This document shows, piece by piece, positions 10,271-27,247 of a stretch of 45,530 bases of DNA. Source of the stretch: Patescibacteria group bacterium (GTDB lineage Bacteria > Patescibacteriota > Microgenomatia > UBA1400 > PJMF01); contig JAHJBU010000003.1 of NCBI GenBank assembly GCA_018813375.1, positions 1-45,530 on the forward strand, read 5' to 3'. The notes under the pieces were generated by a model. The model did not search any database and was not told the origin of the DNA. It saw nothing but the letters and a program-made list of their open reading frames with translations. How positions within the stretch are numbered: position 1 is the first letter of the stretch; every line of letters begins with the position of its first letter. Position numbers and translations under genes: made by a program.

Positions 10271-11257
10271 ATGACTCTTACCATTATCATAGTTTCTTAC
10301 AACACCAAAAAATTAACTCTCCAAACCATTGAAGCCGCCTGGAAAGAAGCTCAGTCATCTAAAATTTTGGCTAAGAGAACAGAGATCATAATTGTTGATA
10401 ATGATTCTAAAGATAACACCGCGACTGCCATCAGAGATAGCTTTGACAGCAAAAATATTAAGGTCATTGCTAATAAACACAACAAAGGTTTTGCCTCAGC
10501 CAATAACCAAGGAATTAAGGTTGCCAAAGGTAAATACATTATTCTCCTTAACTCTGACACCATTGTTCAAAAAGGTGGTTTGAGTACTATGGTTAAAACT
10601 TTTGAACGCTTTCCTTTAGATGATACTACTGCTACTCTAGCTTCTGAAAAAAACAAAATTGATAAACTAGGCATATTAGCCCCCACGCTTTTAAATCCTG
10701 ACGGAACACTCCAGCCACAAGGGGGAGACTTACCAACCCTATTTTCGCTTTTCAATCATATGAGCTTTTTAGATGACTTACCAATTATCGGCAAACTTTT
10801 ACCATCAACACAACACACGGGTTTTAGACAAAGTGAAAAACTTCGCTATCACACCAATGACACTCGTCTGATTAAGCGGGGGTGGGTAGGTGGTACTGCT
10901 ATGATGATTAGAAAAGAAGTCATTAAAGAGATTGGTTTACTTGATGATGCAATTTTTATGTACGGAGAAGATACTGAATACTGTATGCGAGCCAGCCATC
11001 ACCATTTTGATATAGCTATTGATCCTCAAGCTAAAATTACTCATTTTAGCCAGGCAAGTTCTAGTAATACCAATGCTATTAAGGGTGAATTTAAATCCTA
11101 TATTTATAACTGGTCAAAGCACAAACCACTTTGGCAAATTCCAATAATTAAACTAATATTAAAAATGGGCATTATACTTAGAATAATTGCCTTTAGTACC
11201 ATCAAACCAGACAAAAAAAGATGCCAAATTTATAGAGAACTATTATCACAGATATAA
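10271..11257 (+). CDS. GT2 family glycosyltransferase
   Basis: IIIVSYNT...IIIVDNDSKDNT...NKGFASANNQG...ILLNSDT...MYGEDTEYCMRA (DxD and ED motifs of GT-A GT2 enzymes). Confidence 0.85.
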   Translation: MTLTIIIVSYNTKKLTLQTIEAAWKEAQSSKILAKRTEIIIVDNDSKDNTATAIRDSFDSKNIKVIANKHNKGFASANNQGIKVAKGKYIILLNSDTIVQKGGLSTMVKTFERFPLDDTTATLASEKNKIDKLGILAPTLLNPDGTLQPQGGDLPTLFSLFNHMSFLDDLPIIGKLLPSTQHTGFRQSEKLRYHTNDTRLIKRGWVGGTAMMIRKEVIKEIGLLDDAIFMYGEDTEYCMRASHHHFDIAIDPQAKITHFSQASSSNTNAIKGEFKSYIYNWSKHKPLWQIPIIKLILKMGIILRIIAFSTIKPDKKRCQIYRELLSQI

Positions 11258-11261
11258 AAAC

Positions 11262-12854
11262 ATGAATTATAAAAAAATTCTTAGTTGGCTTGATAAAAAT
11301 ATCCTTTTATTACTGTCAGGCTTCCTCCTAGCCTTTATCCCCCTTTTTCCCAAAATTCCTTTCTTTAGCCCCATTGAAGAATATATAGTTAGAATTCGGA
11401 TAGAAGATTTTTTAGTATTATTTACCATAATTATCTGGCTTATTCAATTAATTAGAAAAAAAATAAAATGGAAGTCCACCACAGCCTGGCTTATGATCGC
11501 CTATGCTGTTGTGGGATTGCTCTCAGTTGTCTCTGCAGTGTTAGTAATTAAAACTGTTCCAATTATAGATAAGCACATACTTAAAACACTCCTTCATTAT
11601 TTTAGATATCTTGAATACTTTGCTCTCTTTTTCATAACTTACTCTAGTCTTAAAAAAACTAAAGATGTGCAAATTTTACTTGGAGTAATAAGTTTCTCAC
11701 TACTTTGTGTTTCAATCTATGGAGTGGGGCAAAAATATTACTATTGGCCAGTTTACTCCACCATGAATCGCGAGTTTAGCAAGGGAATTCGCCTTTATCT
11801 AACCGAACATGCTAGGGTTCAATCTACTTTTGCTGGTCATTATGATCTAGCTGCCTATCTAGTAATAATTCTACCGCTCCTACTAGCCTTAGCATATAGT
11901 TCCAAACAAAAAATAATCAAGTTTTTTCTTTTTTTCCTGCAATTTTTTGGAGTCTGGATGCTAATTGTGAGTGCTGCCAGAACATCGTTTATAGCCTACG
12001 TTCTATCCTCGATAATTGTAGTTATCTTATCTGGATTAAAAAAAGATTCTTTTTGGTTAAAAATTTCTTGGATCACCACCAGACTTCTAGGACTATGGAT
12101 AGTCATTTTTATTTTAATAGCTATATTTGGAACTGATATTTATGAAAGATCTCTTCAGGTTCTTAAACCCTATCCATTGATCTATTCTAAATACGAACAA
12201 CTAGAAAAACAAATAAACAAATCTTTTATCAGAACTATCTCTACTACACCTCCATCTAATTCAATTTCAACTAAAGAAGTTGAGGTTCTAGTCGCATCAG
12301 ATCAACGCCCATCTACAGAGAGACCAATGGACGTCTATCATGATATCCCGGATCAAATTAAAGTTTCCACAACTTCTGCTGATGGAGTCACAGAAACAAT
12401 CATTGTTGAAAAACCCAGAGTTTGGTCAGACAATGCACTTCGGTACGGTCTTTCCACAGCTATTAGACTAGATACCCTCTGGCCAAGAGCAATGCAGGGG
12501 TTTATTCGCAATCCACTTTTTGGAAGTGGCTATGCTACCCTAAATAAAACTAGTCCAACAGATTTCACTATAGCTGATAGCACTGATAACAATTTTTTAC
12601 GTACTCTAGGTGAAACTGGACTGTTGGGATTTATTACTTTTTATGGCATTGTACTAAGCTCTATTGTCCTAGCAATTTCAGGTTTAAGAAAAAAAGATGT
12701 TTTGCTTTCAACACTCAGCATTGGCTATCTAGCTGCTACTTTAGGATTACTGTTTAATGCTTTTTTCATTGACGTTTTTGCAGCCTCAAAGGTTGCATTT
12801 ACTTTTTGGGCTATAACCGGGCTGTTTTTAGGCTATTATAAATTAAAGAAATGA
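11262..12854 (+). CDS. Wzy_C / O-antigen-ligase-like polytopic membrane protein
   Basis: The track ORF starts at 11187 but overlaps the GT2 gene by 71 nt. The in-frame ATG at 11262 (MNYKKILSWL) lies 4 nt after the upstream stop. The protein is multi-TM, and its C-terminal block AIRLDTLWPRAMQGF...DNNFLRTLGETGLLGF is shared with ORF 1..2043. Confidence 0.75.
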   Translation: MNYKKILSWLDKNILLLLSGFLLAFIPLFPKIPFFSPIEEYIVRIRIEDFLVLFTIIIWLIQLIRKKIKWKSTTAWLMIAYAVVGLLSVVSAVLVIKTVPIIDKHILKTLLHYFRYLEYFALFFITYSSLKKTKDVQILLGVISFSLLCVSIYGVGQKYYYWPVYSTMNREFSKGIRLYLTEHARVQSTFAGHYDLAAYLVIILPLLLALAYSSKQKIIKFFLFFLQFFGVWMLIVSAARTSFIAYVLSSIIVVILSGLKKDSFWLKISWITTRLLGLWIVIFILIAIFGTDIYERSLQVLKPYPLIYSKYEQLEKQINKSFIRTISTTPPSNSISTKEVEVLVASDQRPSTERPMDVYHDIPDQIKVSTTSADGVTETIIVEKPRVWSDNALRYGLSTAIRLDTLWPRAMQGFIRNPLFGSGYATLNKTSPTDFTIADSTDNNFLRTLGETGLLGFITFYGIVLSSIVLAISGLRKKDVLLSTLSIGYLAATLGLLFNAFFIDVFAASKVAFTFWAITGLFLGYYKLKK

Positions 12855-24756: not shown

Positions 24757-25545
24757 ATGAAAAAAAAACTTCCTATTATTTTAATAGCCTTATTAATTAT
24801 TGGCGGAGGCGTTTTTACTTTTACCAAATCACGCTCCAAACCAACTACTCCGGAACAAACTTCCAAAAAAAAACGCATTGAAGAGCCTACTAATGTTATT
24901 GCAGTAGAGGAAAGACCATATATCCAGATAATTCCTCATGCTGATGGACACAACGTCAGTATTAAAATAAACGCGGTTAAAAAAGACGCCGCTAGCGTTG
25001 AGTATGAGCTTGAATACCAGGCTGGCTCACTATTACAGGGCGCATTTGGCCAATTTGATTTAAATTCACTGCCAGCAACAGAAAAAATTCTTTTGGGCAG
25101 TTGTAGCGCAGGGGGTGCTTGCTCTTTTCATGAAGATATTCAGGGCGGATCACTCCTAACTCGTTTTGACGGTCCAGAGTCATATGCACTTAAATCTCGT
25201 TGGAAATATATTGACAACATTGATAGCAGAACATCTTTTAACTCTCAAGATGCTAAATTTCAAATTGAGTCAACTGATCTAAAAAATCAACGCTATCTAG
25301 TGATCTTTAACACCGCTGGCTATCCAGAAGGTCTAGAGGGCATGCTTGTGTCTGAAATTTACTCATTCACTAGCTCTAGTTCATTAACTGGAAAAGCTGA
25401 GCTAACCATCCGCGCGCAAGAAGAAGGCGAGCTAGCTATCATGGGCTATGATGGGGAAACTTGGCATAAATTTGATACCACTGTAGATGAAAAAATAGCT
25501 ACTGCAGAAGTGGATTTAATGGAGCTGTACGTAGTGACTAACTAA
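24757..25545 (+). CDS. Hypothetical N-terminally anchored or secreted protein
   Basis: 262-aa ORF with MKKKLPIILIALLIIGGGVFTF as a signal/anchor. No lipobox Cys and no recognisable domain. Confidence 0.6.
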   Translation: MKKKLPIILIALLIIGGGVFTFTKSRSKPTTPEQTSKKKRIEEPTNVIAVEERPYIQIIPHADGHNVSIKINAVKKDAASVEYELEYQAGSLLQGAFGQFDLNSLPATEKILLGSCSAGGACSFHEDIQGGSLLTRFDGPESYALKSRWKYIDNIDSRTSFNSQDAKFQIESTDLKNQRYLVIFNTAGYPEGLEGMLVSEIYSFTSSSSLTGKAELTIRAQEEGELAIMGYDGETWHKFDTTVDEKIATAEVDLMELYVVTN

Positions 25546-25585
25546 CACTTTTTCAAATTTAAAAAACTAGTTAAGTAAATTTAGG

Positions 25586-25645
25586 TTGACAAGGTACTTG
25601 TAACGCATGTATACGCGCCTGTATACTTCATATAATGAACTGTTC
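25586..25645 (+). promoter_or_regulatory. Candidate promoter(s) with operator-like palindromes for the Panacea cassette
   Basis: TTGACA 25586-25591. Two self-palindromic GTATAC hexamers at 25609-25614 and 25621-25626. Perfect TATAAT 25631-25636, immediately followed by palindrome GAACTGTTC 25637-25645. The ATG is at 25683. Confidence 0.5.
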
Positions 25646-25682
25646 GTAAACGGGCGGTGAATTAACAGACTTAAAAATTAAC

Positions 25683-26222
25683 ATGAAAATACCATTAGTC
25701 AAACTCAAGGCTATCCTTCTATACTTTTGCAATCATACTGATGTCAAGTTTTTAGGCAAAGTAAAACTAATGAAGCTTTTTTACTTTTTAGATTTTATAC
25801 ACCTAAAAACATATGGATCTCCGGTTACGTACGATACTTATATAAACTTAGAGCATGGTCCAATTCCTTCCTTTATTAAAAACTTAATTGATAATGCCGC
25901 CGATGATCTAAATGAGTCTGAATTATCAGATGTGATCGATATAGACAAACCAGATGGAATTTCTATGTGTAGATTTTTACCCAAGAGAAAATTTCTAGAT
26001 GATGATAAAAAACACCTTTCAGAAGTTGAGCTAGAAATATTAGAGAAGATTTGTTTAAGATTTGGTGATAAAAATACAAAATATCTTGAAGATATATCTC
26101 ATAAAGAATCAGCCTGGAGAATGACCAGATTCCTACAAGTGATACCCTATAATCTAGCAGCCAATGATAAAGATTGCCTAGTGGAAGAAGAAGATATAAA
26201 ATTACTTATGGATATAATGTAA
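25683..26222 (+). CDS. Panacea / DUF4065 (SocA-like antitoxin, GepA-like phage-associated) domain protein
   Basis: LGKVKLMKLFYFLDFIHLKTYGSPVTYDTYINLEHGPIPSFI fits the K-L-x-K-L-x-Y ... G-x-P ... GP[VI] pattern of the Panacea domain. 179 aa with an acidic C-terminal part. Confidence 0.7.
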   Translation: MKIPLVKLKAILLYFCNHTDVKFLGKVKLMKLFYFLDFIHLKTYGSPVTYDTYINLEHGPIPSFIKNLIDNAADDLNESELSDVIDIDKPDGISMCRFLPKRKFLDDDKKHLSEVELEILEKICLRFGDKNTKYLEDISHKESAWRMTRFLQVIPYNLAANDKDCLVEEEDIKLLMDIM

Positions 26223-26617
26223 TGAGTTTTCCCCTAACATTTGGTGATGTTTTTGAATATGAAGAAAGAGTTTATATATTTTTAGTTTTATCAGAAAAAG
26301 TAATTCATGTAGCAAGAGTTTTGGACTTAATTGAGACTCAAAAAATTGAAGAGAGAGTCGAGAGATTGATTCAACAAGGAAAAGATGATTTTTTAAAAAC
26401 TAACGTATTATTTGCATATGTTAAACTTCAAACAAAAGAACTAAAAAATAGAGCTTGTCACTTACACAATACGGGAAAAGATGACTTAAGTATGTATTTC
26501 AGCCCACTCCCCATTTCTTTATCTAATAAAGATTTAAAAGGCATTAAAAAGGAAATTTTAGAAAGAAAAACTGTCTCTACAACTCTTCAAGAACTTGTTA
26601 AAGATATAGAAATATGA
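26222..26617 (+). CDS. 131-aa orphan protein translationally coupled to the Panacea gene; candidate toxin or effector partner
   Basis: The track ORF starts at 26174 inside the upstream gene. The in-frame ATG at 26222 overlaps the upstream TAA (TAATG). MSFPLTFGDVFEYEERVYIFLVL... has no TM segment and no family I recognise. It contains R77-ACHL-H82 (an R-x4-H pattern). Confidence 0.6.
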   Translation: MSFPLTFGDVFEYEERVYIFLVLSEKVIHVARVLDLIETQKIEERVERLIQQGKDDFLKTNVLFAYVKLQTKELKNRACHLHNTGKDDLSMYFSPLPISLSNKDLKGIKKEILERKTVSTTLQELVKDIEI

Positions 26618-26735
26618 GTAATTTTTTACCCTACTCCACAAAGTAATTTCAACTAATTAGAAATCGATTGCGACTGTTTTTAAAGTTGCTTAGTTATAAA
26701 TCCGCTTTTTTTATCCCCATAACTAATCTCCAACA

Positions 26736-26760
26736 CCCGAAACTAGTTCGGGGTTTACTT
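26736..26760 (+). terminator. Hairpin downstream of the Panacea cassette; weak intrinsic-terminator candidate
   Basis: CCCGAA 26736-26741 / loop ACTAG / TTCGGG 26747-26752, followed by GTTTACTT. The T-tract is short, so the call is tentative. Confidence 0.4.
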
Positions 26761-26788
26761 GGCAATTCCTAGAGTGTATCTTTTGATT

Positions 26789-26818
26789 ATGGTAAAAAAT
26801 GGTAAATGAGCTTATAGT
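26789..26818 (+). promoter_or_regulatory. 10-bp-phased direct repeats (ATGGTAAA x2) plus a -10-like TATAGT upstream of mraZ; candidate MraZ autoregulatory boxes and dcw promoter
   Basis: ATGGTAAA at 26789-26796 and 26799-26806; TATAGT at 26813-26818; mraZ ATG at 26828. Confidence 0.35.
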
Positions 26819-26827
26819 ATCCTTAAA

Positions 26828-27247
26828 ATGTTTATCGGCAGATACTATCACACGCTTGAAGAAAACAATCGTGTTTCATTACCAAAAAAATTTAGAAATA
26901 TAGAAACAAACTGGATCGTCACTAGAGGATTAGACGGCGGTTTATTTTTATTTAGAGCTGCGAATTTTAAAGAAGAATTAGAAAAACTCTCGCAGCGCAC
27001 TTTCACAAAAAAAGCACATCGTGACTTTATAAGATTAATGACAAATGACGCTAAAGAAATTATAGCTGACAAAAATGGTCGAGTTTCCCTGCCCGAATAC
27101 TTGATTAAATTTGCTCAATTAAAAAAACAATTAGTGGTAATTGGTAGCTACTCGCATATAGAAATTTGGAACCAAAATCGATATCACCAATATTTAGAAA
27201 AAATCGAATCACAAGCTGAAAAACTTGCAGAAAGAGTAGATGACTAA
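26828..27247 (+). CDS. mraZ: Transcriptional regulator MraZ
   Basis: MFIGRYYHTLEENNRVSLPKKFR ... DKNGRVSLPEYL shows the duplicated SpoVT/AbrB-like (R/K)VS(L/I)P motif. It is the first gene of the dcw cluster. Confidence 0.9.
   Translation: MFIGRYYHTLEENNRVSLPKKFRNIETNWIVTRGLDGGLFLFRAANFKEELEKLSQRTFTKKAHRDFIRLMTNDAKEIIADKNGRVSLPEYLIKFAQLKKQLVVIGSYSHIEIWNQNRYHQYLEKIESQAEKLAERVDD

What the first reader, a model, noticed from the sequence alone, without database searches (positions are those of the whole stretch)
25586..26760. Autonomous Panacea(DUF4065)-domain two-gene cassette between housekeeping operons: candidate novel toxin-antitoxin or defence pair
Most gene gaps in this window are under 25 nt, but this pair is set off by 137-bp and 210-bp spacers. 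It has its own promoter-like elements with palindromes (25586-25645) and a downstream hairpin (26736-26752). Gene 1 (179 aa) has the Panacea/SocA-like antitoxin pattern. Gene 2 (131 aa) starts on the overlapping TAATG, which indicates translational coupling and stoichiometric co-expression typical of TA modules. Panacea-domain antitoxins are known to pair with many unrelated toxin families (PanA-PanT systems). A partner I cannot assign to any family is therefore a plausible new toxin or effector type. It sits between glyQS and the dcw cluster in what looks like a streamlined genome, where retaining such a module implies selection.
Basis: partly seen in the sequence, partly recalled or inferred. 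Interest (0 to 1): 0.75.

Follow-up and report, generated by a model that had tools for sequence, protein, structure and literature searches.

The report
Inserted Panacea antitoxin–unknown partner gene pair
A 1.2-kb two-gene cassette, inserted between housekeeping genes of a candidate-phyla-radiation bacterium, pairs a Panacea-domain antitoxin-like protein with a previously unnamed 131-residue partner, and it looks like a new member of the known PanAT toxin-antitoxin class rather than a new kind of system.

Summary
Gene 1 (25683-26222, 179 aa) is a stand-alone Panacea/DUF4065 protein (Pfam E 3.5e-19). Gene 2 (26222-26617, 131 aa) starts on an overlapping TAATG.

Gene 2 is not an orphan. It belongs to an unannotated family of at least 209 clusters at 50% identity. 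This family sits directly downstream of this Panacea clade in 45 of 53 genome loci, and in 9 of 9 places found by starting from the partner. No other flanking gene recurs.

Relatives with 82-85% identical GlyS keep the order recO-glyS-p262-mraZ without the cassette. The cassette also has the lowest GC in the window. It is therefore a lineage-specific insertion of about 25546-26705.

The "downstream hairpin" (26736-26752) belongs to the conserved mraZ upstream region, not to the cassette.

The partner is a pseudogene in 6 loci, while Panacea is intact in all 53. This fits partner = toxin. Its AlphaFold model is confident (pLDDT 91.8) and resembles MazF/PemK only weakly (Foldseek E 0.15). There is no sequence or profile similarity to MazF, and the partner is acidic.

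Best reading: a type II PanAT-like module with an uncharacterised toxin family. Toxicity is untested. Novelty: new member of a known kind. Interest is moderate.

The parts
25546..26705 (+). Extent of the inserted cassette (approximate). It replaces the Rho-independent terminator that follows the 262-aa gene in relatives.
   Evidence: Relatives with 82-85% identical GlyS have recO-glyS-p262-mraZ with a 166-176 nt p262-mraZ spacer and no cassette. The alignment of the 3' flank shows that homology resumes at the T-run at about 26706-26712. GC is 30.0% against 35.6 +/- 2.2% for the window, the lowest of all 1160-nt windows.
25604..25626 (+). Tandem direct repeat CGCATGTATAC / CGCCTGTATAC. Each copy holds the palindrome GTATAC, and the repeat lies just upstream of TATAAT (25631-25636). 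It is a candidate operator/promoter region; function is not shown.
   Evidence: Repeat family D10 and the sequence itself. The promoter scan is not above chance in this window. TATAAT and TTGACA are the commonest hexamers upstream of 50 homologous modules. No operator sequence is shared between loci.
25683..26222 (+). Gene 1: a stand-alone Panacea (DUF4065) protein of 179 aa with no N-terminal accessory domain. Putative antitoxin (PanA).
   Evidence: PF13274 E 3.5e-19 and phrog_1281 E 6e-19. It has 588 homologues, the best 120 at 59-75% identity and nearly all 176-194 aa. Mean pairwise identity is 55% over 43 loci. The gene is intact in all 53 genome loci.
26222..26617 (+). Gene 2: a 131-aa soluble acidic protein from an unnamed family that is always coupled to this Panacea clade. 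Putative toxin (PanT).
   Evidence: No hit in any family library. 209 representative clusters at E <= 1e-3. Direct downstream partner in 45 of 53 loci. AlphaFold2 pLDDT 91.8. Weak MazF/PemK fold resemblance but hhalign probability 0.16% against a MazF profile. Pseudogenised in 6 loci.
26670..26689 (+). Weak terminator-like hairpin GCGACTGTTTTTAAAGTTGC inside the insert's 3' tail. The only candidate for a cassette-own terminator.
   Evidence: Terminator scan. It lies upstream of the point where homology with empty-site relatives resumes.
26713..26827 (+). Ancestral mraZ upstream region, including hairpin 26736-26752. It marks the right boundary and is NOT part of the cassette.
   Evidence: Aligned with many invariant columns (82 across the whole alignment, nearly all of them here) to five relatives, three of which have an empty site (alignment A4).

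Best explanation
This is a horizontally acquired, autonomous type II toxin-antitoxin-like module of the PanAT class.

Proposed mechanism:
- Gene 1 encodes a stand-alone Panacea-domain antitoxin.
- Gene 2 is translationally coupled to it through the TAATG overlap. It encodes a small soluble toxin of an uncharacterised family.
- The Panacea protein is inferred to neutralise the toxin by direct protein-protein binding. This is the 'conformational neutralisation' shown for other stand-alone PanAs.
- The pair is transcribed from its own promoter in the 137-nt upstream spacer.
- The toxin's target is unknown. Its predicted fold is a small beta-barrel plus helices that resembles MazF/PemK/CcdB only weakly. 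It lacks the MazF catalytic motif and is acidic. I therefore favour a protein-binding poison or a non-canonical activity over a MazF-type RNase.

Shown: domain identity, obligate pairing, autonomy, insertion, and asymmetric decay of the partner.

Inferred: toxicity, which gene is the toxin, direct neutralisation, and own promoter.
For: 1. Gene 1 is PF13274 with no extra domain.
2. The gene order is antitoxin then toxin with a -1 nt overlap. Kurata et al. 2022 (PMC8832971) report this as the commoner PanAT arrangement.
3. All three in-silico PanAT criteria of that paper are met: gap of 100 nt or less, conservation in at least 2 species, and no longer operon. Partner homologues lie at -17 to +16 nt downstream in 45 of 53 loci spanning many Patescibacteria lineages plus Bacteroidota. 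Only these two families recur among 439 flanking ORFs.
4. The pairing is reciprocal. Five of 5 partner proteins, in 9 places, are preceded by a 178-181 aa PF13274 gene or by a contig-truncated upstream ORF that matches the Panacea HMM.
5. Mobility. The cassette is absent from the syntenic site in relatives with 56-85% identical GlyS and present only in the same organism. Its GC is the lowest in the window, and gene 2 GC3 is 16.7% against 26.7 +/- 2.8%.
6. Asymmetric decay. The partner carries nonsense mutations, frameshifts or deletions in 6 of about 49 assessable loci. One is an isolate genome, Parasediminibacterium JCM 36343. Panacea is intact in 53 of 53 (Fisher p = 0.010). This is the pattern expected if the partner is the harmful component.
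7. The identities of the two proteins co-vary between loci (r = 0.58), so they are inherited as a unit.
8. Stand-alone Panacea antitoxins neutralise directly (Ernits et al. 2023, PMC10440598). MazF/PemK-fold toxins paired with PanAs lacking an N-terminal domain are already validated (clusters T5, T6, T8).
Against: - No experiment shows toxicity or neutralisation. In the published screens many predicted PanAT pairs were 'not toxic' in E. coli, for example F. xanthum T8.
- The putative antitoxin is much more conserved than the putative toxin (55% against 29% mean pairwise identity). This is the reverse of the usual TA pattern.
- The partner is acidic (median pI 5.2), and it has no conserved residue constellation that clearly marks an enzyme. 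The conserved positions are G8, D9, T71, R77 and D104, and two of them look like helix caps.
- The fold similarity to MazF is below significance: best E 0.15, TM 0.47-0.55.
- The loci were retrieved through the Panacea gene, which could bias the decay asymmetry. Some MAG frameshifts could be assembly errors.
- No PADLOC hit, and there is no consistent defence-island or mobile-element context.
Confidence: 0.6

Rival explanations
1. The pair is an antiphage abortive-infection or defence module. The highly conserved Panacea protein acts as a sensor of an infection cue and releases or activates the partner as effector. It would be a TA architecture with a defence role rather than addiction.
For: Ernits et al. 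2023 hypothesise a sensory role for Panacea and link TA networks to defence systems. The unusually strong conservation of Panacea relative to the partner would fit a constraint other than toxin binding. Panacea matches phage protein families phrog_1281 and phrog_10390. Sources label homologues 'phage-associated protein'. A few homologous loci sit beside type IIG restriction-modification genes.
Against: Neither protein hits PADLOC. Neighbours are mostly housekeeping genes, and only 2 of 87 flanking proteins are restriction-modification enzymes. This clade is essentially absent from viral contigs, with only two hits at 30-37% identity and no partner, and the partner is absent from phage and plasmid records. 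No phage-host system exists to test it.
Confidence: 0.15
2. The pair is a non-toxic accessory two-gene module. The partner is not a toxin but, for example, a regulator or binding partner of Panacea. The pair spreads horizontally for another reason.
For: The partner is acidic and shows no clear catalytic signature. The putative toxin evolves faster than the putative antitoxin. Many predicted PanAT and NetFlax pairs showed no toxicity in E. coli. The partner can be lost without loss of Panacea, which also fits plain dispensability.
Against: Strict two-gene autonomy, overlap coupling, patchy distribution and insertion into a conserved site are the hallmarks used to predict TA modules. Decay hits only the partner (6 against 0). 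This is more specific than neutral loss, since the longer Panacea gene should be hit at least as often.
Confidence: 0.2
3. The polarity is reversed. The conserved 179-aa Panacea protein is the harmful or active component, and the fast-evolving 131-aa protein is its antidote.
For: In classical TA pairs the toxin is usually the better conserved partner, and here that is Panacea. The partner is acidic, as many antitoxins are.
Against: Six loci keep an intact Panacea gene with a dead or deleted partner, including an isolate genome. This would be lethal if Panacea were toxic. Every characterised Panacea protein is an antitoxin.
Confidence: 0.05

Closest known systems
PanAT toxin-antitoxin systems with stand-alone PanA (no N-terminal domain) and MazF/PemK-like PanT: clusters T5, T6, T8 of Kurata et al. 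2022. Examples are Pseudomonas moraviensis PanAT (validated TA) and Chryseobacterium bovis (toxic).
   Same: The upstream protein carries only the Panacea domain. The order is antitoxin then toxin, and the genes overlap or nearly abut (-8 to +5 nt there, -1 here). The downstream protein is small, roughly 110-140 aa. The module is chromosomal and patchily distributed. The best, though weak, structural matches of the partner are MazF/PemK toxins.
   Different: T5, T6 and T8 toxins hit MazF/PemK at 99.5-99.7% HHpred probability. This partner family has no PF02452 hit in 58 members and 0.16% hhalign probability against a MazF profile. It also lacks the G-x-E-Q-x-G-x-R-P loop and is acidic. Its hosts are mainly Patescibacteria MAGs, and the searchable (truncated) text of the paper's data set showed only a few Saccharibacteria genomes from that group. 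I could not compare the sequences directly.
MazF/PemK/Kid (and CcdB) SH3-like-barrel toxins
   Same: Similar size, an N-terminal beta-hairpin beginning with a G-D motif, a beta-strand ending in a conserved Thr, and C-terminal helices. Foldseek ranks three different MazF proteins and two phage PemK-like or endoribonuclease models first.
   Different: No match is significant (best E 0.15, TM 0.47-0.55, rmsd 4-6 A). There is no sequence or profile similarity. A long helix (residues 36-51) is inserted. The partner is acidic (pI about 5.2-6.3). The cognate antitoxin is Panacea, not MazE/PemI.
SocAB (type VI TA of Caulobacter; SocA is a Panacea-domain ClpXP adaptor)
   Same: Gene 1 shares the Panacea domain with SocA, and NCBI's pipeline names homologues 'SocA family protein'.
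   Different: The NCBIfam SocA equivalog scores 19 bits against a cutoff of 190. The partner has no NCBIfam hit. The paper's table lists SocAB with antitoxin before toxin, and there the toxin is degraded rather than sequestered.

Membership tests
PanAT (Panacea-antitoxin TA systems, Kurata et al. 2022) | One gene encodes a protein with the Panacea/DUF4065 domain (PF13274) | tested here: met
   E 3.5e-19, 70.2 bits against cutoff 25.7, residues 29-145
PanAT (Panacea-antitoxin TA systems, Kurata et al. 2022) | Two-gene locus with at most 100 nt between the genes | tested here: met
   1-nt overlap, TAATG. Gaps are -17 to +16 nt in homologous loci.
PanAT (Panacea-antitoxin TA systems, Kurata et al. 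2022) | [quoted passage not shown] | tested here: met
   45 of 53 genome loci from many lineages and 9 of 9 partner-first places
PanAT (Panacea-antitoxin TA systems, Kurata et al. 2022) | Neighbourhood conservation does not indicate an operon longer than three genes | tested here: met
   No other flanking family recurs in more than 3 loci. Neighbours are heterogeneous.
PanAT (Panacea-antitoxin TA systems, Kurata et al. 2022) | The partner is toxic when expressed and is neutralised by the cognate PanA; the two proteins form a complex | not testable with these tools
   Only indirect support: the partner is pseudogenised in 6 loci while Panacea is intact in 53 of 53.
MazF/PemK toxin family (PF02452) | Sequence or profile match to the family | tested here: not met
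   0 of 58 members hit PF02452 at E <= 1. hhalign of A2 against a validated MazF profile gives probability 0.16%. No sequence hit in the PDB.
MazF/PemK toxin family (PF02452) | SH3-like beta-barrel fold of MazF/CcdB | tested here: inconclusive
   The confident model (pLDDT 91.8) has MazF-mt1, S. aureus MazF and MazF-mt3 as top PDB hits, but at E 0.15-4 and TM 0.41-0.55. Two phage PemK-like models head the viral library at E about 0.5.
MazF/PemK toxin family (PF02452) | Catalytic Arg in the beta1-beta2 loop (G-x-E-Q-x-G-x-R-P) plus a catalytic Thr | tested here: not met
   The loop motif is absent and beta1-beta2 is a tight hairpin. T71 (98%) and R77 (83%) are conserved but lie in a different arrangement.
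SocAB type VI TA | SocA equivalog-level match (NCBIfam NF047745) | tested here: not met
   19.1 bits against cutoff 190
Catalogued anti-phage defence systems (PADLOC-DB 2.0) | Either protein matches a defence-system model | tested here: not met
   No hit at E <= 1 for either protein

The most novel reading that the evidence does not exclude
The partner could be a genuinely new toxin or effector type. It would have a MazF-like small barrel that has lost RNase chemistry and acts on a protein target, or it would have an unrelated fold. It is coupled to an unusually constrained Panacea clade (55% mean identity across candidate-phyla lineages) that acts as a sensor rather than a mere plug. That would make this a Patescibacteria-wide, horizontally mobile stress- or phage-responsive switch with a new mode of toxicity.
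Probability: 0.2. Interest if true: 0.6.

Novelty: new member of a known kind. Interest (0 to 1): 0.38.

Why it matters
PanAT systems are known for pairing one antitoxin domain with dozens of unrelated toxins. This cassette adds an unnamed partner family that no domain library covers. The family has at least 209 clusters at 50% identity. It is found almost entirely in Patescibacteria, organisms with tiny genomes and no genetic tools, which the published PanAT survey appears to sample only sparsely.

If the partner is toxic, three things follow:
- It would be a compact new growth-arrest protein with a confident structural model.
- The reversed conservation pattern, with the antitoxin far more constrained than the toxin, would be a useful test case for the proposal that Panacea is a sensor.
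- The clean empty-site comparison dates the acquisition and shows that such modules still move into streamlined genomes.

If it is not toxic, the find is simply a hypothetical-protein pair.

Tried and rejected
- Word-indexed homologue search for gene 2 found only itself, which wrongly suggested an orphan. The exhaustive HMMER search and neighbourhood reading corrected this. A profile query in the word-indexed search still recovered only 6 proteins.
- Single-sequence AlphaFold2 was useless (pLDDT 40.6).
- Partner-based scanning of metagenome contigs failed because the alignment had no stretch conserved enough.
- MazF membership was rejected at the sequence level.
- A SocAB equivalog was rejected.
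- A PADLOC defence system was rejected.
- A membrane toxin was rejected. There is no convincing transmembrane segment: the maximum Kyte-Doolittle 19-residue mean is 1.6, and it lies in predicted beta-strands.
- A phage or plasmid vehicle was not found.
- No recurrent transposase, integrase or defence-island context was found. There are 2 IS1595 transposases, 2 rve_3 integrases and 2 type IIG restriction-modification enzymes among 87 neighbours.
- No Rfam RNA lies in 25300-26900.
- Candidate terminal inverted repeats around the insert (12 nt) are no better than chance in AT-rich DNA and were not claimed.
- Identity with Kurata cluster T14, which holds the only Saccharibacteria entries found in their table, was rejected. 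T14 is HigB-2/RelE-like and is paired with an HTH-PanA.
Full report
**1. Observation**

The ORF list and sequence show gene 1 at 25683-26222 (179 aa) and gene 2 at 26222-26617 (131 aa). They are joined by TAATG. A 137-nt spacer precedes the pair and a 210-nt spacer follows it. Nearly all other same-strand gaps in the window are 34 nt or less.

The flanking genes are recO, a class II glycyl-tRNA synthetase and a 262-aa protein without a Pfam hit upstream. Downstream are mraZ, rsmH and a penicillin-binding protein.

Gene 1 matches Pfam PF13274 SocA_Panacea at E 3.5e-19 and phrog_1281. Its score for the NCBIfam SocA equivalog is far below the cutoff (19 against 190 bits). Gene 2 has no hit in Pfam, NCBIfam, PADLOC or PHROGs. 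No Rfam family lies in the region.

**2. Gene 2 is not an orphan**

The word-indexed protein search returned only the protein itself, a hypothetical protein of a 'Patescibacteria group bacterium'. Gene 1 has 588 homologues. The best 120 listed are 59-75% identical and nearly all 176-194 aa long.

A genome scan with the Panacea alignment gave 53 loci. They come from many Patescibacteria lineages: Shapiro-, Woese-, Roizman-, Giovannoni-, Vogel-, Uhr-, Falkow-, Doudna- and Saccharibacteria, among others. A few come from Bacteroidota.

Reading the DNA downstream of each match showed a 123-142 aa ORF at -17 to +16 nt in almost every locus. It starts with x(2-6)-F-G-D-[VI]-F and aligns over its full length with window gene 2. 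The exhaustive HMMER search confirmed 209 representative clusters at E <= 1e-3 and 76 at E <= 1e-10, nearly all of them single-domain proteins of 110-147 aa.

Across 439 flanking ORFs only two families recur: Panacea (53 of 53 loci) and the partner (45 of 53). Nothing else recurs in more than 3 loci.

Starting from five divergent partner proteins, all nine places found have an upstream 178-181 aa PF13274 gene. In one place the upstream ORF is cut by the contig end but matches the Panacea HMM. Distant Panacea genes on viral contigs lack the partner.

The pairing is therefore obligate in both directions, and the module is autonomous.

**3. The cassette is an insertion**

A metagenome scan with GlyS followed by tblastn showed a conserved gene order. 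Relatives with 82-85% identical GlyS (L065-L069, L109, L110), and many more down to about 56%, keep recO-glyS-p262-mraZ-rsmH. In the three empty-site relatives L065, L067 and L069 the p262-mraZ spacer is only 166-176 nt. Only L122, which is 99-100% identical and so the same organism, has the cassette.

In the empty sites p262 is followed by a strong terminator (AAAGACCACC...GGTGGTCTTTTTTT) and then a conserved mraZ upstream region. In the window that terminator hairpin is gone. Homology resumes at the T-run at about 26706-26712.

This stretch is conserved in relatives without the cassette.

The insert (about 25546-26705) has 30.0% GC, the lowest of all 1160-nt windows (mean 35.6 +/- 2.2%). Gene 2 GC3 is 16.7% against 26.7 +/- 2.8% for host genes.

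The same spacer carries other, unrelated insertions in other relatives.

**4. Which gene is the toxin?**

Six loci retain an intact Panacea gene next to a dead partner:
- L005, L011 and L038 each have a single nonsense codon.
- L037, from the isolate Parasediminibacterium sp. JCM 36343, has a frameshift plus multiple stops.
- L012 has an internal deletion.
- L024 has lost everything after residue 20.

No Panacea gene is disrupted in any of the 53 loci (Fisher p = 0.010).

This is the pattern expected if the partner is harmful and Panacea is harmless, and it argues against reversed polarity. There are two caveats: the loci were retrieved through Panacea, and MAG assemblies contain errors.

**5. 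What is the partner?**

With a 58-sequence alignment, AlphaFold2 gives a confident model (pLDDT 91.8, pTM 0.83). It has a three-stranded N-terminal sheet, a long helix, further short strands and two C-terminal helices.

Foldseek against the PDB puts MazF-mt1, S. aureus MazF and MazF-mt3 first. None of these matches is significant (best E 0.15, probability 0.87, TM 0.47-0.55). The viral library is headed by an 'endoribonuclease' and a 'PemK-like protein' at E about 0.5.

I checked it against the PDB, where it hits MazF, EndoA and Kid entries at 1e-11 to 1e-49. It aligns to the partner profile with only 0.16% probability. None of 58 members hits PF02452.

The conserved positions are G8, D9, T71, R77 and D104 plus hydrophobic core residues. 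The MazF G-x-E-Q-x-G-x-R-P loop is absent. The family is acidic (median pI 5.2) and has no convincing transmembrane segment.

I conclude that the fold may be a remote MazF/CcdB-like barrel. Membership of the MazF family is not supported, and an RNase mechanism is not the default expectation.

**6. Comparison with what is known**

Kurata et al. 2022 (PMC8832971) defined PanAT systems. They found 1,268 loci and 88 toxin clusters, 41 of them without any domain hit. Antitoxin-first order is the commoner arrangement.

Their clusters T5, T6 and T8 pair PanAs that lack an N-terminal domain with MazF/PemK-like toxins. These have the same order and spacing as here. One is a validated TA (P. moraviensis), one is 'toxic' (C. 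bovis) and one is 'not toxic' (F. xanthum). Those toxins reach 99.5-99.7% HHpred probability to MazF, which this family would not. I therefore infer that it is a different cluster, but I could not compare sequences.

The only Saccharibacteria rows found in their table belong to T14. That cluster is HigB-2-like and is paired with an HTH-PanA, so it is unrelated.

Ernits et al. 2023 (PMC10440598) showed that stand-alone Panacea neutralises directly, and they proposed that Panacea is a sensor.

All in-silico PanAT criteria are met here. The experimental ones cannot be tested with these tools.

**7. Unusual points**

Panacea is much better conserved than the partner: 55% against 29% mean pairwise identity, with the two co-varying at r = 0.58. 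This is the reverse of the usual TA pattern and is compatible with the sensor idea.

Upstream regions of 50 homologous modules share no operator. They are enriched for TATAAT (29 loci) and TTGACA (24 loci), consistent with an own promoter. In the window itself the promoter scan is at chance level. The GTATAC-containing tandem repeat at 25604-25626 is real but of unknown function.

Neighbours are mostly housekeeping genes, with only occasional transposases or restriction-modification genes. The partner is absent from phage and plasmid records.

**8. Verdict**

This is a real, horizontally acquired PanAT-type two-gene module with an uncharacterised partner family. It is a new member of a known kind.

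The attribution of the hairpin, the 'unassignable' status of gene 2 and the selection argument are not.

My confidence that it works as a TA pair with gene 2 as the toxin is about 0.6.

Noticed in passing
window 26713-26827: About 115 nt upstream of mraZ is strongly conserved in relatives with and without the cassette. It contains the hairpin CCCGAAACTAGTTCGGG (26736-26752), TTTACTTGAC, two TGGTAAA repeats 11 nt apart and then TATAGT. This is probably the dcw-operon promoter with an MraZ operator.
   Followed up: partly
L068:8216-8437, L110:8219-8452, L072:8316-12053, L083:8196-11253, L090:8266-9488 (also L073, L099, L113, L116): The spacer between the 262-aa gene and mraZ carries different, unrelated insertions in other relatives. 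They range from a 73-77 aa reverse-strand ORF and single-ORF inserts of 0.6-0.8 kb to 1.2-3.7 kb of extra genes. The site looks like a hotspot for accessory DNA.
   Followed up: partly
window 24757-25545: The 262-aa protein has an N-terminal hydrophobic anchor and no Pfam family. It is conserved in synteny between glyS and mraZ in relatives, with tblastn matches down to about 25-30% identity. It appears to be a lineage-specific conserved gene of unknown function.
   Followed up: partly
L037:4527-4964 (Parasediminibacterium sp. JCM 36343, NZ_JBKHKJ010000018.1): An isolate Bacteroidota genome carries an intact Panacea gene of this clade (54% identity) next to a heavily degraded partner pseudogene. 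This shows that the module crosses phyla and decays asymmetrically.
   Followed up: yes
L056:5539-5990: A HicA/HicB toxin-antitoxin pair lies 2.1 kb downstream of a homologous Panacea-partner module. L058 and L063 each have a small GIY-YIG gene just downstream.
   Followed up: no
L001, L013, L017, L018, L023, L024, L029, L039: Several contigs carrying this Patescibacteria-type module are labelled Gammaproteobacteria, Pseudomonadales or Nanoarchaeia in their records. These are probably binning or label artefacts rather than real hosts.
   Followed up: no
partner family (alignment A2): Five of 58 partner homologues give weak hits (best E 5e-4) to phrog_4622, a phage protein family of unknown function. 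The window protein itself does not.
   Followed up: no
window 11187-12854: The mechanically called TTG start of this ORF overlaps the preceding gene by 71 nt. The true start is probably further downstream.
   Followed up: no
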